DNA from: a bacterium
Lineage (GTDB): Bacteria; Patescibacteriota; Minisyncoccia; UBA6257; GWB1-50-10
DNA: 43,537 nt
Reading direction: 5' to 3'
NCBI GenBank assembly: GCA_021815205.1
Contig: JAKAHD010000002.1
Coordinates: 1 to 43,537, forward strand
The translations under genes were made by a program, and so were the position numbers. Every line of letters starts with the position of its first letter. Position 1 is the stretch's first letter. The notes below the pieces were generated by a model. It was not told where the DNA came from. It did no database searches and worked only from the letters and a program-made list of their open reading frames with translations. Positions 3,533-41,040 of the stretch are shown in pieces.

Positions 3533-5287
3533 ATGGATACCGAAAAACGAATATGCCAAAACTGCAAACAGGAATTTGTCATCGAACCCGATGATTTTTC
3601 ATTCTATGAGAAAATAAGGGTTCCGCCGCCCACGTGGTGCCCGGAGTGCAGGATGAAGCGGCGGATGGTCTTCAGAAATGAGCGGAAGCTCTTCCACACT
3701 AAAGACGGAATAACAGGCAACTCAATCCTCGCACTTTACCCGCCCGAATCCGGCTACATTATTTATGACGATACGTATTGGTGGGATACAAGTAAATGGG
3801 ATCCGATTTCTTACGGTGTTGATTTTGACGAGAACAGGCCGTTCTTACTTCAATTATTTGAGCTTAATAAACGTGTTCCTAAATATCGCCGTGCCGCTAT
3901 CAATATGGTAAATAGCGAATACTCCGCGAATGCCGCCGATCTCAAGAACTGCTATCTTTTGTTCAATTCGAACTATTCGGAGGACTGTGCTTATGGAAAT
4001 GGCATTGATTACAGCCGCAATTGCTATGATAACTCTCATATTCAAAAATCAGAAAAATGCTATGGTTCTTTTTGGCTCACCGCGTGTTACGAAAGTCATT
4101 TTTCTTCTCAGTGCGAAAATTGCATTTCCGTATGGTTTTCAAAAAATTGCCGCGGTTGCAATAACTGCTTCGGTTGTGTGAATTTAAGAAACAAAAACTA
4201 TTGTTTCTTTAATGAACAGCTTCACAAAGAAGAATACGAACGCAGATTTGCAGAACTTCATCTTGATACGTGGAGCGGTCTCGCGGTCGCGCAAAAAAAA
4301 GCCGACGCCTTTTGGCTTCAGTTCCCCATTAAATATCTGCAAGGCATTCAGAACGCGAACGTGAGTGGTGATTTTATCTCCCACTCAAAGAATGTTTACC
4401 GAGGTTATCTAATCCGTGAATGTGAAGATGTTCGCTATATCCAGTATTCACAAGTTCCCTCAAGTCGTGACTGTATGGACGGAACACTCATCGGCAATCA
4501 TTCGGAGTTGTTGTACGAGACTTCAGTGTGTGGGTGGGGTGGCAGTAATCTGAAGTTTTGTTGGGAGTGTTGGGATGACGTTCGCGATCTGGAATATTGT
4601 ATTTTCTGCGGGCACGGCGCTTCCAATCTTTTCGGCTGTGCTGGTGTTTTGAAACATCAGTACTGCATTTTAAATAAACAATACAGTAAAAATGATTATG
4701 AGTTTCTGAAAAAAAGAATCATCGAGCATATGGATAAACTGCCGTATGTTGATAGAAAAGGAAGGGTGTATAAATACGGAGAATTTTTTCCGCCGGAGTT
4801 CAGCGCATTTGCTTACAACCAGACAATCGCATCGGAGCATTTTCCGCCCACACAGGAAGAGGCCGAAAAGTTGGGAATCCGCTTACAAGAACCAAACCCG
4901 ACTGAATATGAAACGACCATACACGCAAGCGACCTTCCCGATTCAATCAAAGATGCAGCGGATTCGATACTCAAGGAAGTAGTTCGGTGTGAAACGTGTA
5001 AACGTGCTTATCGGATAATTCCAGTCGAGCTGCACTTCTTGCGCCAGATGAATTTGCCTCTTCCTCGGCACTGTATCGACTGCCGTCATTTAGCACGGGT
5101 AAGCAAGCGCAATAAGGCAGTATTTTATGAGCGGCAGTGCTCCTGTGATTATAAGGTCTATAAAAATACTGGTGGTCATATGCACCACCCAACGGGTCGC
5201 TGTTTGAATAGGTTTATTACTAGCTACGCCCCCGACCGACCGGAGATCGTGTACTGCGAACAATGCTACCAGACGGAGGTAGTGTAA
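3533..5287 (+). CDS. Cys-rich multi-zinc-ribbon repeat protein of unknown function, paralog 1
   Basis: CQNC, CPEC, repeated CxNCFGC units, CETC/CIDC and terminal PDRPEIVYCEQCY; colinear with 34335-36113. Confidence 0.8.
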   Translation: MDTEKRICQNCKQEFVIEPDDFSFYEKIRVPPPTWCPECRMKRRMVFRNERKLFHTKDGITGNSILALYPPESGYIIYDDTYWWDTSKWDPISYGVDFDENRPFLLQLFELNKRVPKYRRAAINMVNSEYSANAADLKNCYLLFNSNYSEDCAYGNGIDYSRNCYDNSHIQKSEKCYGSFWLTACYESHFSSQCENCISVWFSKNCRGCNNCFGCVNLRNKNYCFFNEQLHKEEYERRFAELHLDTWSGLAVAQKKADAFWLQFPIKYLQGIQNANVSGDFISHSKNVYRGYLIRECEDVRYIQYSQVPSSRDCMDGTLIGNHSELLYETSVCGWGGSNLKFCWECWDDVRDLEYCIFCGHGASNLFGCAGVLKHQYCILNKQYSKNDYEFLKKRIIEHMDKLPYVDRKGRVYKYGEFFPPEFSAFAYNQTIASEHFPPTQEEAEKLGIRLQEPNPTEYETTIHASDLPDSIKDAADSILKEVVRCETCKRAYRIIPVELHFLRQMNLPLPRHCIDCRHLARVSKRNKAVFYERQCSCDYKVYKNTGGHMHHPTGRCLNRFITSYAPDRPEIVYCEQCYQTEVV

Positions 5288-5316
5288 CAGGTACTATGAG
5301 GCCTCATAGTACCTGT
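5287..5316. repeat. 24-bp-core palindrome family, variant GGTACTATG-AGGCCT-CATAGTACC
   Basis: 30-bp perfect palindrome overlapping the last base of the upstream stop codon. Confidence 0.9.
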
Positions 5317-5475
5317 CTTCTCATATTAGTCCTGTGTTTTAATCCGTCTTATAAGATGGTTGTTCAAGATTGGTAAACCTTGTCCATTAAGATTATTAGT
5401 TTGCCAATCTTAAATTACGGATACGTGTATTATCCGTGTTCTGTGGTAATCTGTATCAATTGTGAGATATTTGGT

Positions 5476-6729
5476 ATGGACTACTTTGAGATCATAAAGA
5501 AAGATCAGGAGACCAACGCGAGGGCTGGAATTTTACGCACCCCGCACGGAGAGGTGCGGACGCCTTCCTATGTCGTCGTGGGGACTGATGCGGCGGTCAG
5601 GTGCGTGCCGCCCGAGGAACTTCCGCGCACGAAGACGCAGCTCATTATCGCGAACACCTACCATTTATGGCGGACGTTCGGGCTAAACCCACGGCCCGCA
5701 GAGCGGGCTGGGTCGCCCGAACATTTTCCGAGGGAAAATGTTTTAGGGAAAAACTTGGAAACGTTCGAGGGATTGCACGAGCGGATGAAGTGGAACGGCC
5801 CCCTCATGACTGACAGCGGGGGATTTCAGGTATTCAGTTTCGGATTCGGAAGAGCGCACGGTCTTGGGAAAATGATGCCGCGATCATCCGAAAGTGGCGC
5901 GCGGAGTTTCAAGATGGGAGAAAATCTCGTGCGGGTGACGGAAGACGGCGCGTATTTTACTGACGGGGGAGAAGAGCTGTATCTTGACGCCGAGACCTCG
6001 ATCCGTATTCAGGAGAAACTCGGCGCGGATATTATCGTGGCGTTCGATGAACCCACTTCTCCTTTACACGATCATACGTATACAAAAGAATCGCTCGTGC
6101 GGACGCATGCGTGGGCCCTCAAGTCCTTGAAGGCGAGGACGCGCAAAGACCAGATGATGTACGGGGTGGTGCAGGGCGGCGCGTTCGAGGACCTGCGGAA
6201 AGAGAGCGCGGAGTTTATCGGGAAGCAGGCGTTCGAAGGATTTGCAATCGGCGGATCGTACGGCGAATCAATGGGTGCGCCGCGGGAGCAGATGCTTTCC
6301 GTCTTGAAGTGGAGCGTGCCGTATCTCCCGGAAGGAAAGCCCCGCCATCTTTTGGGGATCGGGCGCATCGAGGATGTGTTCGATGCGGTCGAGCTCGGAA
6401 TGGATACCTTCGACTGTGTGATTCCGACGCGGGAGGCGCGCCACGGCTCGATATGGAGCGCGTTGGGGAGGTTCGACATGCGGAAGGGAATGTTTGAGAA
6501 AAGCGATGCGCCGCTCGAAGAGGGGTGCGGTTGCATTGCGTGCGCCGAGAAAAAAATCACCCGCGGCGAGCTCCGCAAGCTTTTTAAATCGAAGGATAGG
6601 GAAGCCGGTCATCTTGCAACGCTCCATAATATCTATTTTTTCAACAATCTTTTGGAAAAGATAAGAACCTCGATTCTCGAGGGGAGGTTTTCGGAGTTTA
6701 AAGAAGAATTCCTTCGGAATTTACGATAG
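5476..6729 (+). CDS. tgt: tRNA-guanine transglycosylase
   Basis: ARAGILRTPHG, NTYHL, TDSGGFQVFS, VQGG, KPRHLLG, DTFDCVIPTR, CGCIAC and HN motifs; start moved to ATG 5476 (MDYFEI). Confidence 0.95.
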   Translation: MDYFEIIKKDQETNARAGILRTPHGEVRTPSYVVVGTDAAVRCVPPEELPRTKTQLIIANTYHLWRTFGLNPRPAERAGSPEHFPRENVLGKNLETFEGLHERMKWNGPLMTDSGGFQVFSFGFGRAHGLGKMMPRSSESGARSFKMGENLVRVTEDGAYFTDGGEELYLDAETSIRIQEKLGADIIVAFDEPTSPLHDHTYTKESLVRTHAWALKSLKARTRKDQMMYGVVQGGAFEDLRKESAEFIGKQAFEGFAIGGSYGESMGAPREQMLSVLKWSVPYLPEGKPRHLLGIGRIEDVFDAVELGMDTFDCVIPTREARHGSIWSALGRFDMRKGMFEKSDAPLEEGCGCIACAEKKITRGELRKLFKSKDREAGHLATLHNIYFFNNLLEKIRTSILEGRFSEFKEEFLRNLR

Positions 6730-6812
6730 AAGCGGATTACGCAGAATGAAACGCAAATTAACGCAGATAAGTGTTCTGCGTTATTCGGTGCAGCTTCTGC
6801 GTTTTCTACTTC
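6730..6812. repeat. ACGCAGA/TCTGCGT-type hairpin element
   Basis: agcggattacgcagaatgaaacgcaaattaacgcagat...ttctgcgtt...cttctgcgtt; same motif at 128-152, 7592-7707, 19425-19517 and 36113-36227. Confidence 0.75.
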
Positions 6813-6826
6813 TAACGCAAAAGTGA

Positions 6827-6860
6827 TTGACACGGCATCCGATTCCTTGTATGGTATTTT
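6827..6860 (+). promoter_or_regulatory. sigma70-type promoter
   Basis: TTGACA at 6827-6832 with weak -10 candidates (TATGGT 6850 or TATTTT 6855); GGAGGT RBS before ATG 6890. Confidence 0.5.
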
Positions 6861-7393: not shown

Positions 7394-7405
7394 GTTTTTT
7401 CGACG

Positions 7406-23692: not shown

Positions 23693-23788
23693 ATAGCATT
23701 TTTGGTTTATCAGTTATCAGAGCGCGGCTCTGATAATTTTGTGGATATCTTTTGAGGAAATGGTGTTTTCTCATTCTATAATAGGAAT

Positions 23789-25470: not shown

Positions 25471-25471
25471 C

Positions 25472-26350: not shown

Positions 26351-26381
26351 GCCGACTCCTGTGGTAAAATTGAGCCGACGT

Positions 26382-28878: not shown

Positions 28879-29014
28879 TGAGTGACACCATAGTGATTCT
28901 GTGGTGATATTGTAGTGATACGATTGTAGTACTGCGGTTTTGCTGTGATATTGCCGTCGTATTTCCCGCATTCTGTCAACTGTTGCTTTTTTCTTCACGA
29001 GGTATAATGAAAAT

Positions 29015-29155
29015 ATCCCGTCATTTAGATTCCGGATCAAATAATCCTATTTAGTGGTTCCGCGTAATTCGGTTCGATAGAGGATTCATTTCTTCTTAAG
29101 GATCGATTCAGGAGCCAGGGCTTGAAGAGAGCCGGGATTTATCTAAAGGCGGGAT
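29015..29155 (+). ncRNA. Candidate 6S-like long-hairpin RNA
   Basis: TATAAT at 29003-08; nested pairings atcccgtc/ggcgggat, tttagat/atctaaa, tccgg/ccggg, tggttcc/ggagcca and tcgat/atcga around a central bubble; T-rich 3' end. Confidence 0.35.
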
Positions 29156-29194
29156 TTTATTTTCCCTACTCATCGGAATCATACATCGTCCGCT

Positions 29195-29236
29195 CCTTCC
29201 ACGGGTGCTATGCTATAGCATAGCACCCGTGGAAGG
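29195..29236. repeat. 24-bp-core palindrome family, extended to a 42-bp perfect palindrome
   Basis: ccttccacgggtgctatgctatagcatagcacccgtggaagg. Confidence 0.92.
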
Positions 29237-29326
29237 CATCGATTCAAAAAGAGAAAAAGGGAGTATACTATAATTATAGGAGAAGAAATTATGAGCGCGG
29301 AACAAACCGTACGCGAACACTAGCAT

Positions 29327-29767
29327 ATGGGAAAAGACATCAAGAGGAAAAAAGTACGCATACCTTCCGTTTCCATGTATCCATCGCGGAAGGAGTGGGA
29401 GATTGCGGTATGGAGAATGATGATGCGCTCCCCGGATCTGCTTGGTGTGGTGATTACTCCCGGCGAACGCCACGATCTTGTGATACGTACCGCGGTGAGA
29501 GAAGGCATTCGTTCCGGAAAAAGCTATCGTGAGATCGGAAACGAATTATGGTGTTCTCCGCAAACCATAAGCGGCATCAAAAAAGCGCTTCGCGAGGAGC
29601 GCTATCGAAGCTACTGGGAGCGAGGCAAAACAGAACGGAAGAAAAAAACATACTCCCGATCTTCTCACGATACGGCATGGCGCGAGCCGCGAAGAAGGAC
29701 AAGGCGAGTTACCGGCACGGTATCGCTGGGCGGCATCACAAGAACCCGCTACCCTGAATCGAGGTAA
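29327..29767 (+). CDS. TrpR/YerC-like helix-turn-helix protein
   Basis: ITPGERHDLVIRTAV...GKSYREIGNELWCSPQTISGIKK matches the Trp-repressor-type HTH pattern; basic tail. Confidence 0.7.
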   Translation: MGKDIKRKKVRIPSVSMYPSRKEWEIAVWRMMMRSPDLLGVVITPGERHDLVIRTAVREGIRSGKSYREIGNELWCSPQTISGIKKALREERYRSYWERGKTERKKKTYSRSSHDTAWREPRRRTRRVTGTVSLGGITRTRYPESR

Positions 29768-29774
29768 GCACCAT

Positions 29775-29800
29775 GGGTGTTATGACGCGTCATAACACCC
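29775..29800. repeat. 24-bp-core palindrome family, variant GGTGTTATG-ACGCGT-CATAACACC
   Basis: 26-bp perfect palindrome 7 nt after the stop of the HTH gene. Confidence 0.92.
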
Positions 29801-29895
29801 CCCAAGAGGCATGGACTTTTTGAAAAATACATGGAAAAAAACAGAAGAATGGAATGAAGGATGATGACATGCACGGAGCGCAAGAAGTCGTCTAA

Positions 29896-29923
29896 CAGGT
29901 GCTATGCTATAGCATAGCACCTG
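29896..29923. repeat. 24-bp-core palindrome family (CTATAG centre)
   Basis: caggtgctatgctatagcatagcacctg. Confidence 0.92.
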
Positions 29924-29942
29924 AGGAAGTGAAAGATAACGT

Positions 29943-31247
29943 ATGGGGAAGATTCAAAATTTTGATGCACTTGCAACTTCTCCCGAGCGGAAGGCGGCCT
30001 TGGAAATCACCGAGGCGGCGCTTGCGGCAATTGATACGAAAGCGGTGATACGGAAGTGGGTATCGAATACGAATGGCAATCTCACGATAGGAGAGCATCT
30101 TATAAAAAAAGAGGAGTATGACCGTCTTTTCGTAGTGGGCGTCGGAAAGTGCGCACTTGAGGCGGGTATTGCGCTCGAGGAGATTCTCGGCGAACAATTG
30201 AGTAGCGGGATGTTGCTTACCCCGATTCATCCGTCGGCTTTATCAAATTTTCCTCCGGAAGATAAATTAAAAATTTTCGTGGGCTCGCATCCGTTCCCGA
30301 CGGAAGCGAACGTAAACGCGACAAGCGAGATCATCAACCTCCTCGCGACATGCACCCCGAAGGACATGGTACTTTTCGTTATCTCGGGCGGCGGTTCGAC
30401 GCTCTTGTGCCAGCCGAGGAATCTCGTGTGCGCGCAGGAAAAGGAGATCCTGAACATCCTTTTCGATAAAGGAGCAACAATCGAAGAGGATAATATTATC
30501 CGGAAACATCTCTCGCTTGCGCGAGGAGGACATCTTGCCGCGTACGCGTATCCCGCCCGCATCATCTCGCTTATTTTTTCCGATGTGCCGGGAGATGATG
30601 TGCAGTTTATCGCCTCGGGCCCCACAGTGATGGACACGACGACTGTTGCTGAAGCCGAAACAATCGTGAAGAAGTACCAACTCGAAAAGCACCTCGGGTT
30701 CAAGATCGAGCTCCTCGAGAATCCGAAGGACAAGAAGTATTTCGAGGGGGTTACGAATATTATCGTAGTGTCGAATCGGGTCGCGACAGACGCGATGGAA
30801 AAGAAAGCCGAAGAGCTCGGATGCAAGGCGACGACGGTAACACGCACACTCCAAGGCGAAGCGCGGAAGGTGGGGAAAAATATTGCGAAGAAAATTCACG
30901 GAATGCCGCCGGGGTCGGTATTGCTCTACGGCGGAGAGACGACCGTGACAGTCAAAGGGAGCGGCATTGGAGGGAGGAATCAAGAGGTGGCGCTCGGCGC
31001 GATGGGGAAGATTCGGGAGGGTGAACTCATACTCTCGTTCGCCTCGGATGGACGCGACAACAGTGACTGCGCGGGAGCGCTTTGTGATATAATGACGGGA
31101 GAAAAAGCCAAGAAATTAAGCCTTGATCCAAGGAGTTTTTTGAAACGGAATGATTCATTTCACTTTTTCGAAGCGGTCGGCGATTCGCTCAAAACGGGAG
31201 ACACGGGGTCGAATGTGTCGGATTTGATTATCGCGATGAAATTATAG
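29943..31247 (+). CDS. Glycerate 2-kinase, MOFRL family
   Basis: GVGKCA, HPFP, ISGGGS, SDVPGD...IASGPT, GGETTV, GGRNQE, SDGRD and TGSNVSD motifs. Confidence 0.92.
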   Translation: MGKIQNFDALATSPERKAALEITEAALAAIDTKAVIRKWVSNTNGNLTIGEHLIKKEEYDRLFVVGVGKCALEAGIALEEILGEQLSSGMLLTPIHPSALSNFPPEDKLKIFVGSHPFPTEANVNATSEIINLLATCTPKDMVLFVISGGGSTLLCQPRNLVCAQEKEILNILFDKGATIEEDNIIRKHLSLARGGHLAAYAYPARIISLIFSDVPGDDVQFIASGPTVMDTTTVAEAETIVKKYQLEKHLGFKIELLENPKDKKYFEGVTNIIVVSNRVATDAMEKKAEELGCKATTVTRTLQGEARKVGKNIAKKIHGMPPGSVLLYGGETTVTVKGSGIGGRNQEVALGAMGKIREGELILSFASDGRDNSDCAGALCDIMTGEKAKKLSLDPRSFLKRNDSFHFFEAVGDSLKTGDTGSNVSDLIIAMKL

Positions 31248-31337
31248 AAATTAAGTAGTAGTTAGGTAGAAATTTTTCGTACGGACAACTTCATTACCAT
31301 AAATTACCCACCTAGTTACTACGCAATTACTTTACTC

Positions 31338-33929: not shown

Positions 33930-34083
33930 GAATTGGGAATTGAGTAATTAGTAATTTGAAATCTGGATACATAAATCAAAATCTCCAAGTAGAAACATTC
34001 TTTTACCCAAGGAGGAACCAAGCGGAGCGGTAATCACCGTGGTGTATCGTCAGAAAAAGTCATTTTAGCTGTAGGGAATGTAA

Positions 34084-34107
34084 GGTGTTATGACGCGTCA
34101 TAACACC
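34084..34107. repeat. 24-bp-core palindrome family (ACGCGT centre)
   Basis: ggtgttatgacgcgtcataacacc, identical to the core at 29776-29799. Confidence 0.92.
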
Positions 34108-34246
34108 CGTGTCTTTTTTAGGACCTCAGTTTCGTGCGTATGCACGGAACTGAGGCCAGCGCCCGCATGTTCAATAGTTCCGAGATTGTTATATAATAAC
34201 GGTATGTCTGCCTATGGCAGATCTCCCGTAGGGAGACAACCCATTC

Positions 34247-34300
34247 ATGAACCCCGAAGTAAAAATCTGCAAAGATTGCCATCAATTCGGGGTTATATGA
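34247..34300 (+). pseudogene. Truncated 5' remnant of a third Cys-rich paralog (MNPEVKICKDCHQ...)
   Basis: The first 13 codons align with MDTEKRICQNCKQ and MNQEKRTCQNCKQ; the frame stops immediately before a palindrome. Confidence 0.6.
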
Positions 34301-34301
34301 C

Positions 34302-34327
34302 GGGTGCTATGCTATAGCATAGCACCC
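34302..34327. repeat. 24-bp-core palindrome family (CTATAG centre)
   Basis: gggtgctatgctatagcatagcaccc, 7 nt before ATG 34335. Confidence 0.92.
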
Positions 34328-34334
34328 CACTTCC

Positions 34335-36113
34335 ATGAATCAGGAGAAAAGAACATGTCAGAATTGTAAGCAATCCTTCGTCATTGAACCGGATGATTTC
34401 GGTTTCTATGAGAGGATGCGGGTGCCGGCGCCGACATTCTGTCCTGCCTGCCGCACGCAACGGAGAATGGCATTCCGGAACGATGGATTTTTATATAAGC
34501 GAAAGAGCGATTTTTCCGGAGAGAGCATTTTCTCGATGTATTCGGAGAAATCCCCAATAAAGGTATATGAGCTTGAAGCGTGGTATTCGGATAAGTGGGA
34601 CCCCATAAGTTATGGCAGGGATGTTGATTTTTCAAGGCCGTTTTTCGAGCAGATTCGCGAGATGTTTCAAGAAGTCCCGTGGCGAGCGAGAGGTATTATT
34701 AAGCCCGTGGGGAGCGAATACTCGAACAACTTCACTGGATTCAAAAATTGCTACCTCTGCTTTAACGGCAGCGAATCGGAGGAATGCGGCTATTCGAACG
34801 GGCTGGATTATTCCAAAAACTCTTTCGACAACTCCCATATCGCGTATTGCGAACTCGCCTACGAAGGGTTTTGGCTCACGAGATGCAATACGATCGCGTT
34901 CTCGTCACAATGCGAGGACAGCTTCAATATTTGGTTTTCAAAGAATTTGCGGGGATGTTCGAATTGTTTCGGATGTGCGAACCTCACGAATAAAAGTTTC
35001 TGTATTTTCAACAGACAATATACGAAAGAAGAATATGAAAAGGAAATCCAGAAATACAATCTCGGTTCCCGTAGCGCGGTAAAAATGTTATGGCAGAGGG
35101 CGCAAAAGTTTTGGTTGCAGTTTCCCGAAAAGTTCATGCAAGGAGCGAAAAACTCCAGAGTGAGCGGAAACTACATCAATCAGTCGAAAAACGTGTTCGA
35201 GTCGTATCTCGTTCGAAGCGGCGAAGACTTGAAGAGTTGCCAATATCTTCAGACGGGACCCAACAAGGACTGCCGGGACCTTACGTTCTTTGTGGGGAAC
35301 GAACTTGTGTATGAAGCAGCCCAATGTGGTGATGGCGCGTATAATCTGAAATTCTGTTTTCAGTGCTGGACGAATGTAAAAAATCTCCAATATTGTACGA
35401 GCTGTCTTTCTTCTTCCGATTGCTTCGGGTGTTCAAGTTTGCGCAATAAGCAATATTGTATTTTGAACAAGCAATATACGAAAGAAGAATATGAAAAACT
35501 CGTTCCGAAAATCATCGCGCACATGAACGAGATGCCGTATGTGGATGAAAAAGGAAGAAAATATTGCTATGGTGAATTCTTCCCGGCCGCGTTTTCTCCC
35601 TTTGCATACAACGAAACGATTGCACAAGAGTATTTTCCGCTCACGAAAGACGAAGCGGCGGAACAAGGATATGCATGGAAAGATCAGGAGGCAAAGGGAT
35701 ATAGCGTTACGCTTCCCGTCGAAGAAATAGTGGACGATATCAAATTCGCGGACGAGAGCATTTTAAATCAGGTAATAGAATGCGCGCATGAAGGAAGATG
35801 CAACGATCAGTGCACGAAGGCATTTAGAATCATTCCGCAGGAACTCTTATTCTATAAAAGAATGAATCTGCCCATCCCCGATCTCTGTCCGAACTGCAGG
35901 CATTTCGAACGCTTGAAGCGAAGAAATCCGATTCACCTCTGGCACCGCGCCTGCCAGTGCGCAGGTACGAAATCGGAAAACGGAGTATATACGAATACCG
36001 CAGCGCATCAACACGGGGCGGGGAAGTGTACAAACGAATTCGAAACCAGTTATTCGCCCGACCGTCCCGAGATCGTGTACTGCGAGCAGTGCTATCAAGC
36101 TGAGATAATTTAG
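34335..36113 (+). CDS. Cys-rich multi-zinc-ribbon repeat protein of unknown function, paralog 2
   Basis: Colinear with 3533-5287: CQNCKQ.FVIEPDDF.FYE, KWDPISYG, CSNCFGC, YCILNKQY, YGEFFP and PDRPEIVYCEQCYQ. Confidence 0.8.
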   Translation: MNQEKRTCQNCKQSFVIEPDDFGFYERMRVPAPTFCPACRTQRRMAFRNDGFLYKRKSDFSGESIFSMYSEKSPIKVYELEAWYSDKWDPISYGRDVDFSRPFFEQIREMFQEVPWRARGIIKPVGSEYSNNFTGFKNCYLCFNGSESEECGYSNGLDYSKNSFDNSHIAYCELAYEGFWLTRCNTIAFSSQCEDSFNIWFSKNLRGCSNCFGCANLTNKSFCIFNRQYTKEEYEKEIQKYNLGSRSAVKMLWQRAQKFWLQFPEKFMQGAKNSRVSGNYINQSKNVFESYLVRSGEDLKSCQYLQTGPNKDCRDLTFFVGNELVYEAAQCGDGAYNLKFCFQCWTNVKNLQYCTSCLSSSDCFGCSSLRNKQYCILNKQYTKEEYEKLVPKIIAHMNEMPYVDEKGRKYCYGEFFPAAFSPFAYNETIAQEYFPLTKDEAAEQGYAWKDQEAKGYSVTLPVEEIVDDIKFADESILNQVIECAHEGRCNDQCTKAFRIIPQELLFYKRMNLPIPDLCPNCRHFERLKRRNPIHLWHRACQCAGTKSENGVYTNTAAHQHGAGKCTNEFETSYSPDRPEIVYCEQCYQAEII

Positions 36114-36247
36114 AAGCAGATCACGCAGAAATGTACGCGGATATACCCCTCACATAAATACTTATGTGAGGGGTATACGCAGATGCGTTCTGCGTCAATC
36201 TGCGGCGCTTCTGCGTTATCCGCTTCTATGTGTTACAATATCGGTAT

Positions 36248-37261
36248 ATGAAAATAGGTTTTTTTGAGCTTGAGGGATGGGAGAAGGATGTTATCATAAA
36301 AGCGCTTCCGGAGCATGAGTTGTATTTCAGCGACAAGAAGATCAGCGAAGACGAGATGCCCGAGAGGCGCGACTTCGACATCGTTTCCCTCTTTGTGAGT
36401 TCGCGGGTCACCGCGAAAGTGATTGAAGAGTTCCCGAATCTGAAGCTCGTCACGACGAATTCGACGGGATTCGACCATATCGACTGCGCGGCATGCAGGG
36501 CGCGCGGCATCACGGTGGCATATGTTCCCGGGTATGGCAATAATACCGTCGCGGAGTATGCGTTTGGCCTCCTTTTGAATCTTACGAGGAAGATTTACCA
36601 GGCGATTGATCAGATCAAGGAACGCGACGATTTTTCGCAGAATAACCTCCGCGGTATCGACTTGAAGGGGAGAACAATGGGAGTCTTGGGTACAGGGAGA
36701 ATCGGAAGGGAAACGATCGCGATCGCGAAAGGGTTCGGGATGAAAGTGATCGCGTTCGACCCGTACCCGAACGCGCAGGCGGTGCAGGAGCTCGGATTCG
36801 AGTATAAAACGCTCGACGAGGTGCTCGCGAATGCCGATTGTATTTTGATTCATTGTCCACTCTCGGACTCGACGCGCCATCTTATCAACATGGAGAATGT
36901 AAAAAGGATGAAACGCGGCGCGTATCTCGTGAATACCGCACGGGGGCCGATCGTCGAGACCGACGCGATCGTGTACGGACTCCAAAACGGCATTCTCGCG
37001 GGCGTGGGTCTCGACGTACTCGAAGAGGAGGGGGAGACGAAAGATGAGTTGCAATTTCTCGCAAAATCCGGAACCCGCGAGGAAGAACTGCGGACAATTC
37101 TTGAGAATCACGTGCTCATGAAAATGCCGAATGTCCTCATCACGCCGCACAACGCGTTTAATTCACAGGAAGCGTTGATGCGCATCTTAGGCACTACGAT
37201 AGAAAATATCAAAGGGTTCGTTGGAAATACGCTTAATCCGAAAAATATTGTTCCAGTGTAA
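36248..37261 (+). CDS. D-isomer-specific 2-hydroxyacid dehydrogenase (D-lactate dehydrogenase-like)
   Basis: STGFDHID, VAEY, GTGRIG, HCPL, VNTARG, LDVLEEE and TPHNAF motifs. Confidence 0.92.
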   Translation: MKIGFFELEGWEKDVIIKALPEHELYFSDKKISEDEMPERRDFDIVSLFVSSRVTAKVIEEFPNLKLVTTNSTGFDHIDCAACRARGITVAYVPGYGNNTVAEYAFGLLLNLTRKIYQAIDQIKERDDFSQNNLRGIDLKGRTMGVLGTGRIGRETIAIAKGFGMKVIAFDPYPNAQAVQELGFEYKTLDEVLANADCILIHCPLSDSTRHLINMENVKRMKRGAYLVNTARGPIVETDAIVYGLQNGILAGVGLDVLEEEGETKDELQFLAKSGTREEELRTILENHVLMKMPNVLITPHNAFNSQEALMRILGTTIENIKGFVGNTLNPKNIVPV

Positions 37262-37307
37262 GTTTACCCTTTCTATAACATGCGTTATTTATCATGCAAA
37301 CAAATGA

Positions 37308-37412
37308 ATCCCCACACCCTCCTGCGAGGTATTAAACCCCGCAGGAAGGACTTCTACGCCACCCATTCATCCCCGTAGCAAGCTACGAGGTATTCTGGGA
37401 AGGTGTGGGGAT
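37308..37412. repeat. CCCCACACC-ended hairpin element sharing an internal motif with the MITE-like copies
   Basis: atccccacacc...ggtgtggggat termini; internal ttcatccccgtagcaagctacg nearly matches 7545-7566. Confidence 0.7.
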
Positions 37413-37483
37413 AAATACGGGATCAAGTCGAACCGTACGGATTTGCATTATTTGCTGTAGTTCGCATCATTAGCGATTACTCC

Positions 37484-38683
37484 ATGATTATCGAATCACT
37501 CACCATACAAGAGATTTTCGATTCGAGAGGAGCACCGACGATCGAGGTTACGCTCACGGCGCCCGGGCATCATTCATTCCTTGCAAGAATTCCCTCGGGA
37601 AAGAGCAGGGGAACGCACGAGGCGGCGGTGCTTTCGTATGCGGATGCAGAAAAAGCGCTCCACAATATACTCCGCACGAGAGTAGTGGGGCTCGATTTCC
37701 AGACAATCAAGGAGCTCGACACGTTCCTTATAAAGCTCGACGGCACCGAACAAAAAGAAAAACTCGGCGGTAACGTAATGCTCGGCATATCGCTCGCGTT
37801 CGCGCGGGCGCTTGCGTATGAGAAGGGAGAGGAATTATGGAAGGTATTGCACGAAGAGTTTTTTCCGCGGACGGATATCTCAAAGAGACCACTCATCTTC
37901 GCGAACCTCATAAACGGCGGCGCGCATGCGGACAATAATCTCGATATTCAGGAGTATATGGTAGTCGCCGAACCAAACGCGGAGTATCGGCAAACGGTGC
38001 AGAAACTTATCTCCTTCTACGAACGGTTGGGGTTCATGATAGCAGAAGAGCGTGGAGTTGCGCGCCTTCCCCTGGGAGACGAAGAGGGGTATGAGGTGAA
38101 CTTCAAGGATAACTTCGCGCCGGTCGCGCTTCTCGAGAGATTCATCAAGGAGAGCGAGTTGCAGAATGAGTTCAAAATCGCGCTCGATGCGGCGGCATCG
38201 AGTTTTTATGAAAATGGGAGTTATCGTCTTGAAGGATCATTGTTGTCTATGGAGCAACTCGTCGAGCGGTATAGGGAATATTTCGAAAGATCGAAGTTGT
38301 TGTATTCCATCGAAGATCCGTGTGATGAGGGTGACTTCGAGGGATTCAAGAAGATAATGGAGATCGCGGGAGACCGCTGGATTGTTGCGGACGATCTCAC
38401 GACGACCAACCCGCGTAGGATAGACAAGTATGCGGGAGAGGGGTTGATGACCGGCGTGATTATCAAGGCAAATCAAATCGGTACGCTTACCGAGACATGC
38501 GAGGCGATTAACGCCGCAAAAAAGCGGGGAGTGCGCGTAATCGTGTCGCACCGTTCGGGAGAGACGGATGATGCGTTTCTTATTCACATCGCGAAAGCGT
38601 GCGGGGCGGACGGGGTGAAGATCGGAGCGCCCGCGAAGGAACGGATCTCGAAGTATGACGAGCTGATACGGTTGTATTCATGA
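37484..38683 (+). CDS. eno: Enolase
   Basis: DSRG.PT, INGGAHA, QEYM, DAAAS, IEDP, DDL, KANQIGTLTE and VSHRSGET motifs. Confidence 0.95.
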   Translation: MIIESLTIQEIFDSRGAPTIEVTLTAPGHHSFLARIPSGKSRGTHEAAVLSYADAEKALHNILRTRVVGLDFQTIKELDTFLIKLDGTEQKEKLGGNVMLGISLAFARALAYEKGEELWKVLHEEFFPRTDISKRPLIFANLINGGAHADNNLDIQEYMVVAEPNAEYRQTVQKLISFYERLGFMIAEERGVARLPLGDEEGYEVNFKDNFAPVALLERFIKESELQNEFKIALDAAASSFYENGSYRLEGSLLSMEQLVERYREYFERSKLLYSIEDPCDEGDFEGFKKIMEIAGDRWIVADDLTTTNPRRIDKYAGEGLMTGVIIKANQIGTLTETCEAINAAKKRGVRVIVSHRSGETDDAFLIHIAKACGADGVKIGAPAKERISKYDELIRLYS

Positions 38684-38735
38684 TTGCGGCACAATTCTTT
38701 TGATAAAAAGTGTGCGCTCCGGGGCGCTAGCCCAA

Positions 38736-38766
38736 GTCCCCACACCTATGGCATAGGTGTGGGGAC
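38736..38766. repeat. CCCCACACC hairpin
   Basis: gtccccacacctatg-g-cataggtgtggggac; related hairpins at 1651-1672, 741-765 and 7520-7544. Confidence 0.85.
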
Positions 38767-38976
38767 AAGTCTTACCCACTTTTTATCAAAAGAATTGTGC
38801 ACAAATGAATTTGTGGGGAGTGAGTTTGATATAATAATGTAAATGAACCCCGCACCTTTAGAGGATTGCGGAAGGTAAAATAAAAAATTGTTTTATGAAA
38901 ATAGATAAAGAAGTCGCAGGGATAATATAGAGGAGTATAATGCTTTATAAAGAGCATGGTCCTCTAAAGGTGCGAG

Positions 38977-39447
38977 ATGAAGAATTCTGATTTATCGAAA
39001 AAGGCATCGCTGTGGCTTTTTGTGTTGCGTCTCGGAGTGGGGTGGTTTTTCTTTTACGCGGGACTCACGAAGGTGCTTGACCCCTCGTGGAGCGCGGAGA
39101 AGTTCCTTATGGGAGCGAAAACGTTTCCCGGGCTTTACGCGTGGTTCGCCCAGCCGGGGCTCGTGCAGAGCATCAACCTTATCAATGAATGGGCGCTTGT
39201 CGTCTTGGGCGCCGCGCTTATCCTCGGGTTCTTCCTGCGTCCCGCGGCGCTCTTCGGGATTCTTCTCATGCTTCTTTATTATTTTGCCTCGAACGCCGTA
39301 CCTGTGGTCGAGCACGGATTCATCGTGGACGAGCACATTGTTCTTATTTTAATTCTTTCATTCTTTGTTGCCATTGATGCGGGCGATCACTGGGGATTGG
39401 ACCATTTTTTAAGAAAAGAAGAGAGGGCGAAGGTAGAGAACTATTAA
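38977..39447 (+). CDS. DoxX family membrane protein
   Basis: LRLGVGWFFFYAGLTK, GAALILGFFLR and WGLD motifs. Confidence 0.85.
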   Translation: MKNSDLSKKASLWLFVLRLGVGWFFFYAGLTKVLDPSWSAEKFLMGAKTFPGLYAWFAQPGLVQSINLINEWALVVLGAALILGFFLRPAALFGILLMLLYYFASNAVPVVEHGFIVDEHIVLILILSFFVAIDAGDHWGLDHFLRKEERAKVENY

Positions 39448-39502
39448 GGACACGGATTACACAGATAAGAATATGGACACCACAGACGGTACCTGTGTAA
39501 TA

Positions 39503-39531
39503 TTGACGCATACCGCGGCTCGCGGTATTTT
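39503..39531 (+). promoter_or_regulatory. Promoter with a palindromic operator in the spacer (CsoR/RcnR-like)
   Basis: TTGACG, 17 bp, TATTTT, with ATACCGCG-gct-CGCGGTAT at 39510-39528. Confidence 0.5.
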
Positions 39532-39559
39532 TAGTATGAAAAGATCTAAAAGGGTAAGT

Positions 39560-40279
39560 ATGAAGCAACACATCCTCTATTTCGGTCTGCTGCTTACAGC
39601 ACTCCTCATATTTTCTGGAGCAGGCATGACGCATGCGCAGATGATGGGAAGATATAACGGCTCCTACGGCGCAATGATGGGCGGATGGGTATATCCCGCG
39701 GCAACATCTTCGGAACTTTCGGCAAGCGACACTCAGGCAATCGCGGCTGGCAAGGCATGGTACGCAAAACTCCAGGCGAAACAGGTGTCGTGCGATGATC
39801 TGACGCGGAGCGACTTCGAGAATCTCGGCGAGTATGGTATGGATCAGATGATGGGGACGAGGCACGCCGCGATGAATGCGGCAATGGAGACGATGATGGG
39901 AGCACAGAATGAAGAAGCGATGCACGTCGCGATGGGCGAACGATTCTCGGGATGCGATGCGGATGCGGTATTCTCCGGCGGGTCGAGCCGTGGAAACGGT
40001 GACAATTATTTGGGATATATGCCTATGATGGGATATTTTGGATACGGCCCGATGATGGGCTACGGATACGGCAGCGGATGGTGGGGATGGATTATGATGA
40101 TCCTCTTCTGGGCCCTCATCGTGTTCGGCGTCTTCGCGCTTGTGAAGTGGCTGCGCCACGGTTACGAAGGGTATCATCATCATGCCCATTCTGCCTTGAA
40201 TGTGCTGAAGGAGCGTTACGCGAGAGGGGAAATTGACAGGAAGGAGTTCGAGGAAAAAAGGAAGGATTTAGAATCGTAG
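39560..40279 (+). CDS. Met/His-rich membrane protein with C-terminal SHOCT domain
   Basis: Signal-like N-terminus, repeated MMG, a TM helix, YHHHAH and ALNVLKERYARGEIDRKEFEEKR. Confidence 0.8.
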   Translation: MKQHILYFGLLLTALLIFSGAGMTHAQMMGRYNGSYGAMMGGWVYPAATSSELSASDTQAIAAGKAWYAKLQAKQVSCDDLTRSDFENLGEYGMDQMMGTRHAAMNAAMETMMGAQNEEAMHVAMGERFSGCDADAVFSGGSSRGNGDNYLGYMPMMGYFGYGPMMGYGYGSGWWGWIMMILFWALIVFGVFALVKWLRHGYEGYHHHAHSALNVLKERYARGEIDRKEFEEKRKDLES

Positions 40280-40304
40280 TTCAACAAGGGAAAATCTTGT
40301 AGGG

Positions 40305-40438
40305 TGTCATTCTGAACCCCGCCTGCGTCACGCAGGAGGCGGGCGGGGAGAAGAATCTTGTAACGCTGATCGGTGTCGATAAAGCTGATACCTGCTGATA
40401 CCCTGAGATCCTTCTCCTCCTTGGGGAAGAAGGATGAC
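40305..40438. repeat. GTCATTCTGA...GGATGAC-type element with nested inserts
   Basis: tgtcattctgaa...gaagaatct and gagatccttc...ggatgac, with nested cctgcgtcacgcagg and gctgat repeats; related half at 7718-7753. Confidence 0.6.
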
Positions 40439-40481
40439 CAAGATGGCGTTTGAAGGATGATTTCAGGGATTGGTTATAAGT

Positions 40482-40910
40482 ATGTCAAAGAAGATACTTC
40501 TTATTCTTTTAATCTTAGGAATTGTGGGGTTTGCGGATGCCGCATACCTTACCGCTACTCATTACGGAGGAACATCGCTCGTGTGCTCCGTGTTCAACGG
40601 ATGCGACAAAGTAACCTCGAGCGTCTACGCGGCATGGGGAGGTATTCCGGTCGCGCTCGTGGGGATGTTCTACTACGCGGCAATCGTGATCGTCGCGGGG
40701 CTCGCAGTGTGGAAGGATAAAAAATATGTGCTGTGGATCGTGGGCGTGAGCGCGCTCGGACTTTTCGCGTCAATCTGGTTCGTGTATCTTCAAGCGTTCG
40801 TACTTCACGCGTTCTGCACCTACTGCCTTATCTCCGCCGCGGTTACATTCACGATTTTTGTGATGAGCGTGAAAGCGCTACGCTTAAGGAGCAATGAAGG
40901 TGGAGCATAG
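40482..40910 (+). CDS. Vitamin K epoxide reductase (VKOR) family protein
   Basis: CSVFNGCDKVTSS, GIPVALVG and YLQAFVLHAFCTYC (CxxC). Confidence 0.92.
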   Translation: MSKKILLILLILGIVGFADAAYLTATHYGGTSLVCSVFNGCDKVTSSVYAAWGGIPVALVGMFYYAAIVIVAGLAVWKDKKYVLWIVGVSALGLFASIWFVYLQAFVLHAFCTYCLISAAVTFTIFVMSVKALRLRSNEGGA

Positions 40911-41016
40911 AAAGAGATAACACGGGAGACAAGGCGAAACTACGCGGAAACGCCCTCGTGTTAATCTGCGGACTCATATTTTGAGGTCATCCTCGATGAT
41001 AGGAAGTTGTATAGCA

Positions 41017-41040
41017 GGTGCTATGCTATAGCATAGCACC
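41017..41040. repeat. 24-bp-core palindrome family (CTATAG centre)
   Basis: ggtgctatgctatagcatagcacc. Confidence 0.92.

What the first reader, a model, noticed from the sequence alone, without database searches (positions are those of the whole stretch)
5287..41040. Seven-copy 24-bp perfect palindrome family with compensatory changes, marking cassette-like boundaries
Seen: the core GGTRYTATG-N6-CATARYACC occurs at 5290, 29204, 29776, 29898, 34084, 34303 and 41017 in three variants (centres AGGCCT, CTATAG, ACGCGT). Every substitution is mirrored on the other arm. Copies sit at gene edges: on the stop of Cys-rich paralog 1, 7 nt before paralog 2, and on both sides of the TrpR-like gene. Twice an ACGCGT copy is followed within 120-220 bp by a CTATAG copy. 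Known: HUH/RAYT transposases and integron integrases recognise single-stranded hairpins. Inference: these are recombination or insertion sites of an undescribed cassette system whose enzyme lies outside the window.
Basis: partly seen in the sequence, partly recalled or inferred. Interest (0 to 1): 0.85.

Follow-up and report, generated by a model that had tools for sequence, protein, structure and literature searches.

The report
Palindromic repeats paired with TrpR-like gene
A 24-base perfect palindrome scattered about fifty times through a very small bacterial genome nearly always brackets the gene of a small DNA-binding protein, which points to a repeat-and-protein partnership rather than to gene cassettes.

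Summary
In detail: all 7 palindromes sit where stated (0 in 100 shuffles). They belong to a genome-wide family. The 735-kb Patescibacteria (Paceibacteria-type) genome holds 46 exact and 52 relaxed copies. Copies are mostly intergenic, clustered, and fall into discrete classes with mirrored arms.

The cassette reading is not supported. The genes between copies are housekeeping genes, some in conserved synteny. Two copies lie in frame inside murD. The genome's Y1/HUH transposase genes are flanked by other hairpins and do not track the repeat across relatives.

The gene that does track it is the TrpR/YerC-like gene in the window (29327-29767). 17 of 21 homologues examined across many genomes are bracketed on both sides by class-matched palindromes. 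Gene and repeat co-occur in 8 of 8 repeat-rich relatives. In a wider sample they co-occur in 11 of 17 repeat-rich genomes against 13 of 134 others.

Best reading: a REP-like repeat family whose partner is a dimeric TrpR-fold protein. How copies spread is unknown. I found no description of this in the searched literature.

The parts
5290..5313 (.). Palindrome copy, class AGGCCT (arms GGTAC/GTACC). It starts 2 nt after the stop of Cys-rich paralog 3533-5287 and lies 66 nt before the TGT gene.
   Evidence: No family palindrome was found upstream of TGT in G001-G003 (0 of 3).
29204..29227 (.). Palindrome copy, class CTATAG, 99 nt upstream of the TrpR-like gene. Locus-specific flanks extend it by 9 bp on each side to a 42-bp perfect palindrome.
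29269..29274 (+). TATAAT, a -10-like hexamer between the upstream palindrome and the TrpR-like start. A similar hexamer lies at offset 42 in paralog C12.
   Evidence: The promoter is inferred, not shown.
29327..29767 (+). TrpR/YerC-like helix-turn-helix protein of 146 aa, the proposed partner of the palindromes. It is one of 4 paralogs in the genome.
29776..29799 (.). Palindrome copy, class ACGCGT (arms GGTGT/ACACC), 8 nt after the TrpR-like stop.
29898..29921 (.). Palindrome copy, class CTATAG, 21 nt before the glycerate kinase start. A palindrome lies between the TrpR-like and glycerate kinase genes in G001, G002 and G003 as well.
34084..34107 (.). Palindrome copy, class ACGCGT, 154 nt after the PPDK stop.
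34247..34300 (+). A short 17-codon ORF that resembles the N-terminus of the Cys-rich family. It ends 2 nt before the next palindrome and is probably a gene remnant.
   Evidence: Read directly. The resemblance was judged by eye and not scored.
34303..34326 (.). Palindrome copy, class CTATAG, 8 nt before the ATG of Cys-rich paralog 34335-36113.
41017..41040 (.). Palindrome copy, class CTATAG, 106 nt after the VKOR-family gene.
   Evidence: No family palindrome was found downstream of VKOR in G001 or G002 (0 of 2).
41084..41107 (.). Degenerate eighth copy (core ACTATG-CGGCCG-CATAGT, outer arms decayed).

Best explanation
The seven sites are members of a dispersed, REP-like family of perfect palindromes with the form R-GGTRYTATG-N6-CATARYACC-Y. 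The family is found in Paceibacteria-type Patescibacteria. Its specific partner is the TrpR/YerC-like helix-turn-helix protein encoded in the window (29327-29767) and by its paralogs.

Proposed mechanism.
- The protein forms a symmetric TrpR-type dimer and binds each palindrome as double-stranded DNA, one recognition helix per arm. The invariant inner TATG/CATA and the GTRYTA half-site recall the GTACTA of the E. coli trp operator.
- Each gene copy is bracketed by its own class of sites, so gene plus sites form a unit that duplicates and diverges together.
- Solo copies were spread through the genome by a copy-and-paste process, into intergenic DNA and, in frame, into murD. They stay perfect and class-uniform either through co-evolution with the protein or through conversion from other copies.
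- They are not cassette boundaries.

What is shown: the family, its distribution, its linkage to the gene, concerted change at orthologous sites, and the TrpR fold. What is inferred: binding, the dimer, any regulatory or architectural effect of binding, and the way copies spread (unknown).
For: 1. Adjacency. Of 21 distinct TrpR-like genes examined in G000-G003, G006, G008, G012, G025, G026 and named Paceibacteria contigs, 17 have NNNNNTATG-N6-CATANNNNN palindromes on both sides, 3 on one side, and 1 (cut by the locus end) has none. The listed places add five more bracketed genes (G166 twice, G055, G138, G143) and one with a single listed site (G082).

2. Class matching per paralog. In G000 the flanking pairs are ACGCGT/ACGCGT, ACATGT/ACATGT, AGGCAT/AGGCAT and CTATAG/ACGCGT. 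The three paralogs of G012 have three different arm types.

3. Co-occurrence among 41 relatives. All 8 genomes with 4 or more copies have the gene. Of the 33 others only 1 does, and weakly (E 3e-12).

4. Co-occurrence among 151 genomes of the order. 11 of 17 genomes with 4 or more copies have the gene, against 13 of 134 others. One exception, G051, has a partial match next to the end of its locus.

5. Concerted change at orthologous sites. The murD copy of each of the four species of the genus shares its arms, and in three of the four also its centre, with a palindrome flanking that species' own TrpR-like gene.

6. Fold. A family profile hits solved TrpR-like proteins (3kor, E 2.7e-5) and E. 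coli TrpR. The model has mean pLDDT 76.6 with an HTH at residues 67-89. The top Foldseek hits are all TrpR or TrpR-like with probability 1.00, but E is only 0.025.

7. Homodimer model. Score 0.60 against a best control of 0.00. The mark was reached by 20 of 30 proteins solved as pairs of one chain and by 1 of 23 solved as single chains. The runs agree in at least 93% of contacts and the partner's pLDDT is at least 73. TrpR dimers have been solved, so this pass may reflect likeness to known structures.

8. Operator likeness. The trp operator as printed in two papers, GAACTAGTTAACTAGTAC and TGTACTAGTTAACTAGTACA, shares GTACTA with the arm GGTACTATG.

9. Against a transcript-bound role. Copies occur in tandem, convergent and divergent spacers (32/7/5). 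T-tracts are not enriched (9 of 46 against 17% in controls). TATAAT lies within 120 nt in only 7 of 104 flanks.
Against: - No binding experiment or DNA co-fold was possible.
- In the wider sample 6 of 17 repeat-rich genomes lack a TrpR-like match at E 1e-10. Four of the five that were re-tested still have none at E 0.01. 13 genomes have the gene with fewer than 4 pattern matches, perhaps because their arms differ.
- Relatives are not independent, so these counts overstate the support.
- An operator model does not explain three things. Copies are 24/24 identical with almost no degenerate tail. 16 of 46 copies carry 3-12 bp of locus-specific stem extension, against 1.8% of controls. Five other perfect-palindrome families fill the same genome. 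All three point to hairpin chemistry or a copying mechanism that this reading leaves open.
- The protein has no recognisable catalytic domain, so it cannot by itself explain the spread.
- The recognition helix is nearly invariant while the outer arms vary, so class specificity is unexplained.
- Pfam PF01371 scores below its cut-off on this protein itself (22.3 against 27 bits).
Confidence: 0.55

Rival explanations
1. Classical REP/RAYT-type system. The palindromes act as single-stranded DNA hairpins that are cut and copied by the genome's Y1 (HUH) transposases at G000:C1. The TrpR-like gene is only a frequent neighbour or a regulator.
For: - Two tandem Y1_Tnp genes are present (E 9e-8 and 6e-7, both over the Pfam cut-off).
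- 7 of 8 repeat-rich relatives have a Y1 gene.
- Copies are perfect, discrete in class, clustered and partly extended as hairpins.
- In-gene copies are known for REPs (abstract of PMC3733652).
Against: - The Y1 pair is flanked by other hairpins, not by this family: TTATCAGAGC..GCTCTGATAA, which has 3 copies in the genome, and the GGGTGTCCAACCTCC family.
- In 10 of 10 Y1 loci in relatives no perfect family palindrome was listed. Near the G006 locus one relaxed copy lies about 360 nt outside the gene.
- Y1 genes occur in 10 of 33 repeat-poor relatives and were not found in G008, which has 11 copies and is 96% complete.
- There is no GTAG or CGTC tag: only 5 of 46 copies have one within 8 nt.
Confidence: 0.15
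2. The sites are RNA-level hairpins. They would act as terminators, 3'-end stabilisers or processing sites of mRNAs, with sequence conserved because a protein or RNase reads the stem.
For: - 11 of the 39 copies in tandem or convergent spacers lie within 22 nt after a stop codon.
- The stems are stable, at -12 to -16 kcal/mol.
- A third of copies have extended stems.
- Two imperfect G001 copies are G-U compatible on the sense strand.
Against: - There is no T-tract enrichment: 9 of 46 against 17% in controls.
- Copies also lie in divergent spacers (5), in front of promoters, and inside murD.
- In G000 the 4-nt loop is itself self-complementary in 39 of 46 copies, which an RNA hairpin does not need.
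- Wobble versus A-C mismatches show no strand bias in the few informative copies (inconclusive).
- The linked protein has a DNA-binding fold.
Confidence: 0.12
3. The sites are core sites (9-6-9 architecture) for a site-specific recombinase that moves, inverts or deletes the DNA between same-class copies, as with integron cassettes or pdif modules.
For: - The architecture of 9-bp arms around a 6-bp centre, with discrete centre classes, fits such sites.
- 28 of 46 copies have a neighbour within 1.1 kb, against 9.2 +/- 3.5 for random intergenic placement.
- Gene fragments of the Cys-rich family abut copies.
- All 5 copies or fragments of that family in G000, and several in G001 and G003, are bounded by palindromes.
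- Contigs C4 and C5 share a 117-nt inverted segment next to copies.
Against: - The flanked genes are housekeeping and, where checked around the TrpR-like gene, syntenic.
- Orthologous copies persist across the genus.
- The genome has one tyrosine recombinase (C10, next to a different palindrome family) and three large serine recombinases (C2 and C11). None was checked for adjacency to, or tested against, this family.
- Symmetric centres give no directionality.
- The laid contigs show no rearranged or empty form; only repeat-length joints with sides of 22-51 nt appear.
Confidence: 0.08

Closest known systems
REP / REPIN elements with their RAYT genes (Proteobacteria; PMC3116915 and PMC5581495 seen as search listings only; PMC3733652 abstract read)
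   Same: Both are short palindromic repeats in tens of copies, mostly extragenic and often clustered. Several families can occur in one genome, and occasional copies lie inside genes. In both, a dedicated, usually low-copy gene is bracketed by its own class of repeats and the repeat classes are lineage-specific.
   Different: Here the bracketed gene encodes a TrpR-fold HTH protein with no HUH/Y1 domain. The repeats are perfect through the centre and lack the unpaired GTAG/CGTC tag. The genome's own Y1 genes are flanked by other hairpins.
E. coli Trp repressor and its operator (sequence as printed in PMC13762905 and PMC2504314)
   Same: The protein fold is the same, a symmetric dimer is predicted, and the target is palindromic with a GTACTA-type half-site.
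   Different: The half-sites here lie about 2 bp further from the dyad on each side. There are about 50 sites per 735 kb rather than a handful. Sites lie on both sides of the protein's own gene and inside coding DNA. The protein carries an extra conserved N-terminal motif and a basic C-terminal tail. No ligand is known.
Rickettsia palindromic elements (recalled; only search listings seen)
   Same: Both are palindromic repeats that insert in frame into essential protein-coding genes. Here there are two 8-codon copies in murD.
   Different: As I recall, RPEs are about 100-150 bp with no dedicated binding-protein gene. Sequence relatedness was not tested.
Integron attC sites and pdif modules (recalled)
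   Same: Both involve inverted-repeat sites at gene edges. The arm-spacer-arm layout recalls recombinase core sites.
   Different: There is no integron integrase and no array of promoterless cassettes. The flanked genes are housekeeping and, where checked, syntenic. The sites are perfect 24-mers, not imperfect 57-141-nt attC sites or 28-bp XerC/D sites.
Chromosome-organising proteins with dispersed palindromic sites, such as ParB-parS, MatP-matS and Noc-NBS (recalled)
   Same: In both a small DNA-binding dimer has tens of well-conserved palindromic sites across the chromosome, some next to its own gene and some inside genes.
   Different: The protein family is different. Nothing here links the sites to the origin, the terminus or segregation. 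This could not be tested on a 12-contig assembly.

Membership tests
REP/REPIN-RAYT systems | Short (20-40 bp) palindromic repeats in high copy, mainly extragenic | tested here: met
   There are 46 exact 24-bp copies. 6 of 46 lie mostly inside ORFs of 100 aa or more, while 83% of the genome lies in such ORFs.
REP/REPIN-RAYT systems | Unpaired GTAG or CGTC tag at one end (abstract of PMC3733652) | tested here: not met
   Only 5 of 46 copies have GTAG or CGTC on either strand within 8 nt of an end. The flanks are conserved only as purine at -1 and pyrimidine at +1.
REP/REPIN-RAYT systems | A RAYT (Y1/HUH) gene flanked by the repeats | tested here: not met
   The two Y1 genes of G000 are flanked by other hairpins. 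In 10 of 10 Y1 loci of relatives no perfect family palindrome was listed; a relaxed copy lies about 360 nt from the G006 Y1 gene.
REP/REPIN-RAYT systems | Repeat and transposase co-occur across genomes | tested here: inconclusive
   A Y1 gene is present in 7 of 8 repeat-rich relatives and in 10 of 33 repeat-poor relatives.
Integron cassette arrays (attC with IntI) | Integron integrase gene with attI, followed by same-direction, mostly promoterless cassettes each ending in an imperfect attC | tested here: not met
   The genome has one tyrosine recombinase, on another contig. The genes between copies are TGT, glycerate kinase, PPDK and the like, and the TrpR-like gene has a -10-like hexamer upstream. 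The sites are perfect 24-mers.
Xer/dif-type module sites (pdif) | 28-bp sites with 11-bp XerC and XerD arms around a 6-bp spacer, bound by XerC/D | not testable with these tools
   Only the arm-spacer-arm layout (9-6-9) is alike. No binding test was possible.
TrpR/YerC protein family (Pfam PF01371), for the protein 29327-29767 | Sequence match to the family model | tested here: inconclusive
   This protein scores 22.3 bits against a cut-off of 27. Most of its homologues carry a precomputed PF01371 hit. A profile of 29 homologues hits the solved TrpR-like proteins 3kor (E 2.7e-5), 3frw and 3g1c, and E. coli TrpR.
TrpR/YerC protein family (Pfam PF01371), for the protein 29327-29767 | All-helical TrpR fold with an HTH, forming an intertwined dimer | tested here: met
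   The model has six helices. The top Foldseek hits are all TrpR or TrpR-like (probability 1.00, E 0.025-0.18, none at E 0.001 or below). The dimer model scores 0.60 against a best control of 0.00; the mark was reached by 20 of 30 proteins solved as pairs of one chain and by 1 of 23 solved as single chains. This pass may come from likeness to solved TrpR dimers.
Intrinsic (Rho-independent) terminators | G+C-rich hairpin followed by a T-tract, downstream of genes | tested here: not met
   A T-tract follows 9 of 46 copies, against 17% of random positions. Copies also lie in divergent spacers and inside murD.

The most novel reading that the evidence does not exclude
The palindromes and the TrpR-like gene form a new kind of vertically inherited repeat-protein system in Patescibacteria. 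It would be an analogue of REPIN-RAYT in which the dedicated protein is a TrpR-fold HTH dimer. That protein, through its invariant YSSRKEWE and YRSY..ER.KTERKK motifs or by recruiting a host nuclease or polymerase, would itself copy, convert or maintain the 26-bp palindromes. This would include copies written in frame into essential genes. It would be a previously unknown route for making and homogenising short mobile DNA.
Probability: 0.2. Interest if true: 0.85.

Novelty: new variant of a known kind. Interest (0 to 1): 0.62.

Why it matters
Patescibacteria have tiny genomes and very few known regulators or mobile elements. This genome nonetheless carries at least six families of perfect palindromes. 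The most abundant family is tied to a dedicated TrpR-fold protein, not to a transposase.

If the protein binds these sites, it is one of the first candidate sequence-specific DNA-binding systems with a defined genome-wide site set in this uncultivated group. That can be tested directly with a 146-aa protein and 26-bp oligonucleotides.

If the pair behaves like REPIN-RAYT, it extends the idea of long-lived repeat-protein partnerships to a new protein fold and a new phylum.

There are practical consequences too. The repeats break assemblies, because the gene often sits on very short contigs. They also seed false ORF starts and add 8 codons to murD.

I found no description in the library searched. 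None of the papers listed dealt with such repeats in Patescibacteria.

Tried and rejected
- Phage origin: megablast of 28000-36000 against phage records found no match.
- Rfam at gathering thresholds and ARAGORN on the whole window found 0 RNA families and 0 tRNAs.
- Expression: no RNA holder was listed for 27500-36500. The four runs found are DNA contigs of one study and may be the source of the window.
- Filled versus empty sites in the population: I laid the contigs of X1-X4 on 24000-43500. This gave only joints with 22-51-nt sides at repeats and contig breaks at palindromes. No contig had a copy missing. Short-kmer contigs cannot show absence.
- Closer strains: one scan of metagenome contigs with glycerate kinase returned a single 1.6-kb locus at 59% identity with no palindrome.
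- Shared flanks: all-against-all BLAST of the 300-nt flanks showed paralogous genes and other repeats, but no common larger element around the 24-mers.
- Sense-strand wobble bias: among 68 imperfect matches most were chance hits from unrelated phyla. The few true family members showed both G-T and A-C mismatches, so the test is inconclusive.
- Promoter linkage: TATAAT lies within 120 nt in only 7 of 104 flanks.
- Terminator reading: no T-tract enrichment.
- CIRCE, LexA and NrdR boxes, DNA-uptake sequences, CRISPR repeats and hairpin-telomere sites were considered from memory. I dropped them because the layout or copy pattern did not fit. None was tested.
- PF01797 on the own genome first failed with a machine error and was repeated successfully.
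- The G046 exception of the order sample was not re-tested.
- MurD ORFs of G001 and G005-G007 were wrongly extracted. Only G000, G002, G003 and G008 were used from that alignment.

Full report
**The observation**

The pattern GGTRYTATG-N6-CATARYACC occurs exactly seven times in the window, at the coordinates given. It occurred in none of 100 dinucleotide-preserving shuffles. All seven copies are perfect 24-bp palindromes of three variants, and their positions relative to ORFs are essentially as described. An eighth, decayed copy lies at 41084-41107. The conserved unit is really 26 bp. It is preceded by a purine in 45 of 46 genome copies and followed by a pyrimidine in 46 of 46.

**The genome**

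The window is the first 43.5 kb of contig C3 of a 735,182-bp, 12-contig genome. Exact-motif hits in public genomes that occur several to a contig all carry Patescibacteria titles: Colwell-, Jorgensen- and 'Saccharibacteria' MAGs. Single hits also fall in Lipton-, Zambryski- and Harrisonbacteria and Paceibacteria MAGs, and in unrelated phyla. About 140 hits are expected by chance for this pattern in 596 Gb (my estimate).

The genes next to the copies in the window are ordinary. They are tRNA-guanine transglycosylase, an adenylate-kinase-like protein, a DUF4147/MOFRL glycerate kinase, pyruvate phosphate dikinase and a VKOR-family protein. Two members of a Cys-rich family of about 590 aa have no firm Pfam family: one had no hit and the other only a sub-threshold zinc-ribbon hit.

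**A genome-wide repeat family**

The genome holds 46 exact copies and 52 matches to the relaxed core RYTATG-N6-CATARY. They fall into discrete classes:
- 18 with centre CTATAG and arms GC
- 11 with centre ACGCGT and arms GT
- 5 with centre ACATGT
- 4 with centre AGGCCT and arms AC
- a few one-off variants

45 of 46 copies have mirrored R/Y positions. Only 6 of 46 lie mostly inside ORFs of 100 aa or more, although 83% of the genome lies in such ORFs. 28 of 46 have another copy within 1.1 kb, against 9.2 +/- 3.5 (maximum 20) in 500 random intergenic placements.

Of the 52 relaxed copies, 32 lie in tandem spacers, 7 in convergent spacers, 5 in divergent spacers, 5 inside ORFs and 3 at contig edges. 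Spacer length is split 63/16/21% among the three spacer types. T-tracts are not enriched: 9 of 46 copies against 17% of controls. TATAAT occurs within 120 nt in only 7 of 104 flanks. So the copies are neither canonical terminators nor generally promoter-linked.

16 of 46 copies carry 3-12 bp of locus-specific extension of the palindrome, against 1.8% of random positions. I cannot fully explain this.

The family is also not alone. The genome has 263 perfect hairpins with stems of 9 or more, against 19 after shuffling. At least five other palindrome families account for many of them, and several have members in the window.

**The linked gene**

The TrpR-like ORF at 29327-29767 has three paralogs in the genome. 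Each of the four genes has a palindrome on both sides. The pairs are:
- CTATAG/ACGCGT for the window copy
- ACGCGT/ACGCGT on C12
- ACATGT/ACATGT at C3:61.5-62.3 kb
- AGGCAT/AGGCAT on C1

I then examined every homologue I had DNA for, using the looser pattern NNNNNTATG-N6-CATANNNNN. Of 21 distinct genes, 17 are bracketed on both sides and 3 on one side. One, cut by the end of its locus, has none. These genes come from four species of the genus, from four other genera (G006, G008, G012, G025) and a more distant genome (G026), and from named Paceibacteria contigs.

The outer arms differ between lineages (GATATG, AGTATG, TGTATG and others) but stay complementary. The inner TATG/CATA is constant. 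Different paralogs in one genome carry different classes, for example the three in G012. The listed places add five more bracketed genes (G166 twice, G055, G138, G143) and one with a single listed site (G082).

**Co-occurrence**

Among G000 and 40 relatives, the 8 genomes with 4 or more relaxed copies are exactly those with a strong TrpR-like match. These are G000, G001, G002, G003, G006, G008, G012 and G025; the control pattern gave 0-3. Of the other 33 genomes, only G026 has a match, and it is weak.

In a sample of 151 genomes spread evenly over the order, 17 genomes have 4 or more copies, and 11 of them have the gene at E 1e-10 or better. Of the other 134 genomes, 13 have it. I re-tested five of the six exceptions at E 0.01. 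G051 has a partial match next to the end of its locus, and G056, G058, G121 and G122 have none. G046 was not re-tested.

The gene often sits on very short contigs, so some absences may be assembly losses, but that is an inference. Relatives are not independent, so these counts overstate the statistical support.

**The Y1/HUH alternative**

The genome does hold two tandem Y1_Tnp genes on C1. They are flanked by a different hairpin, which has three copies in the genome, one of them in the window at 23714. They are also flanked by members of two other palindrome families.

In none of 10 Y1 loci of relatives was a perfect family palindrome listed. Near the G006 locus one relaxed copy lies about 360 nt outside the gene. 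Y1 genes are found in 7 of the 8 repeat-rich relatives, but also in 10 of the 33 repeat-poor ones. The REP hallmark tags GTAG and CGTC are absent (abstract of PMC3733652).

The genome has one tyrosine recombinase and three large serine recombinases. I did not check any of them for adjacency to this family.

**Old and new copies**

In G001, G002 and G003 the TrpR-like gene lies upstream of glycerate kinase, as in the window, with a palindrome between the two genes.

murD of G000 carries two in-frame copies, translated as GVMTRHNT and VLCYSIAP. The first is at the same place in murD of G001, G002 and G003, and is absent from murD of G008. At this orthologous site each species has a different palindrome:
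- GGTGTTATGACGCGTCATAACACC in G000
- GGTACTATGACGCGTCATAGTACC in G003
- a CACTATGACGCGTCATAGTG core in G002
- GGTGCTATG..CATAGCACC in G001

In each case it shares its arms with a palindrome flanking that species' own TrpR-like gene, and in G000, G002 and G003 also its centre. Both arms changed together, inside a coding sequence. That calls either for conversion from other copies or for selection by a common reader.

In contrast, the copies at 5290 and 41017 have no counterpart at the corresponding places in congeners (0 of 3 and 0 of 2). G000 has 52 copies against 5-10 in its congeners. So most G000 copies are lineage-specific gains.

**The protein**

The family (62 homologues at E 0.001 or better) has, wherever a source gives an organism, Paceibacteria-type names (Lipton-, Jorgensen-, Parcu-bacteria, Paceibacterota) or simply 'bacterium'. 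Some sources annotate it as YerC or Trp operon repressor.

Its alignment shows an invariant N-terminal motif (SRKEWE..W), a nearly invariant HTH (SYREIG.ELW.SPQTISGIKKAL), a conserved YRSY.ER.KTERKK stretch and a basic tail. A profile of 29 members hits solved TrpR-like proteins (3kor at E 2.7e-5, plus 3frw and 3g1c) and E. coli TrpR.

The AlphaFold model has mean pLDDT 76.6, with the core above 87, and is all-helical. Its best Foldseek matches are all TrpR or TrpR-like, with probability 1.00. However, E is only 0.025-0.18, and nothing reaches E 0.001.

A two-copy model scores 0.60 against 0.00 for the best of three controls. The mark was reached by 20 of 30 proteins solved as pairs of one chain and by 1 of 23 solved as single chains. 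The runs agree in at least 93% of contacts, and the partner's pLDDT is at least 73. TrpR dimers have been solved, so the pass may only reflect likeness to them.

The trp operator as printed in two papers, GAACTAGTTAACTAGTAC and TGTACTAGTTAACTAGTACA, shares GTACTA with the arm GGTACTATG. The spacing to the dyad differs.

**Reading**

The palindromes are a REP-like dispersed repeat family, and the evidence does not support cassette boundaries. The most likely reader of the sites is a dimer of the TrpR-like protein, bound to double-stranded DNA.

Gene plus flanking sites behave as a unit that duplicates and diverges, much as RAYT genes do with their REPs. Here, though, the protein has no known catalytic domain.

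What binding achieves is not shown. Candidates are autoregulation, insulation of neighbouring genes, or a chromosome-wide architectural role. How copies are made is open. Three observations suggest a hairpin-dependent copying or correcting process that the operator reading does not cover: the perfect identity of copies, the stem extensions, and the many other palindrome families in the same genome.

**Rivals**

The rivals are:
- mobilisation by the Y1 enzymes (0.15)
- RNA hairpins (0.12)
- recombinase core sites or cassettes (0.08)

The last keeps some life for three reasons. All five copies or fragments of the Cys-rich family in G000, and several in G001 and G003, are bounded by palindromes. 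G000 has only 3 full copies of that family against 23-26 matches per congener. A 17-codon remnant of such a gene ends at the palindrome at 34303.

**Novelty**

The papers listed by three text searches for palindromic or REP-type repeats in Patescibacteria or the candidate phyla radiation did not describe such a family. I file it as a new variant of a known kind: REP-like repeats with a dedicated gene, but with a TrpR-fold partner.

Noticed in passing
window 1734-1771, 23653-23692, 36142-36177, 38736-38766, 42226-42258: These are further long perfect palindromes (stems of 14-19). Three belong to other genome-wide families: ACACCAAGTTATTTCGCC.., GGGTGTCCAACCTCC.. and ..CCCCACACC... The genome has 263 perfect hairpins with stems of 9 or more, against 19 after shuffling.
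   Followed up: partly
window 23714-23736; G000:C1:6004 and 7666: The hairpin TTATCAGAGC-NNN-GCTCTGATAA followed by TTTTG.GGATA has three copies in the genome. Two bracket the tandem pair of Y1 (HUH) transposase-like genes on C1, and the third lies in the window next to a GGGTGTCCAACCTCC palindrome. This may be the true REP/RAYT-type system of the genome.
   Followed up: partly
window 3533-5287 and 34335-36113: A Cys-rich family of about 590 aa has zinc-ribbon-like ends and no firm Pfam family; one member gave only a sub-threshold zinc-ribbon hit. Atlas clusters call it a hypothetical or zinc-binding protein of Patescibacteria. Each congeneric genome gives 23-26 matches, while G000 has only 3 full copies and 2 fragments, and all of these abut palindromes.
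   Followed up: partly
G000:C11:6427-8097 (murD; locus L141/L142): murD carries two in-frame 24-bp palindromes, adding GVMTRHNT and VLCYSIAP. The first is shared by all four species of the genus with species-specific sequence. The second lies in a roughly 100-bp stretch found only in G000.
   Followed up: yes
G000:C4:26856-26996 and C5:1-141: The two contig ends each hold a CTATGG-centre copy next to the same 117-nt segment in opposite orientation. This is either a long inverted repeat bounded by palindromes or an unresolved inversion, and the assembly breaks there.
   Followed up: no
G008:C2:30437-30490 and G008:C1:132075-132180: In a genome of another genus, 18-bp cores of different classes (CGGCCG, ACATGT, ACGCGT) stand back to back without spacers. 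G000 has looser clusters of different classes at C8:94515-94777 and C12:81359-81587.
   Followed up: no
G000:C3:72780-73621: A 208-aa gene (72811-73437) is bracketed by two copies of another palindrome family (ACACCAAGTTATTTCGCCATGG..). So the layout palindrome-gene-palindrome is not unique to the TrpR-like gene.
   Followed up: no
G000:C10:18081-18114 and 18283-18792: The genome's only tyrosine recombinase gene lies about 170 nt from a member of yet another palindrome family (ACTAACTTATCTGACGATCGTCAG..).
   Followed up: no
L076 (Colwellbacteria contig), L080, P0023: The palindrome carries ATG on both strands. ORF lists and deposited proteins therefore begin inside it (MIDHNT.., MLCYSIAP.., MYRALCYSTAP..), and in the Colwellbacteria contig a copy lies inside truB.
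   Followed up: partly
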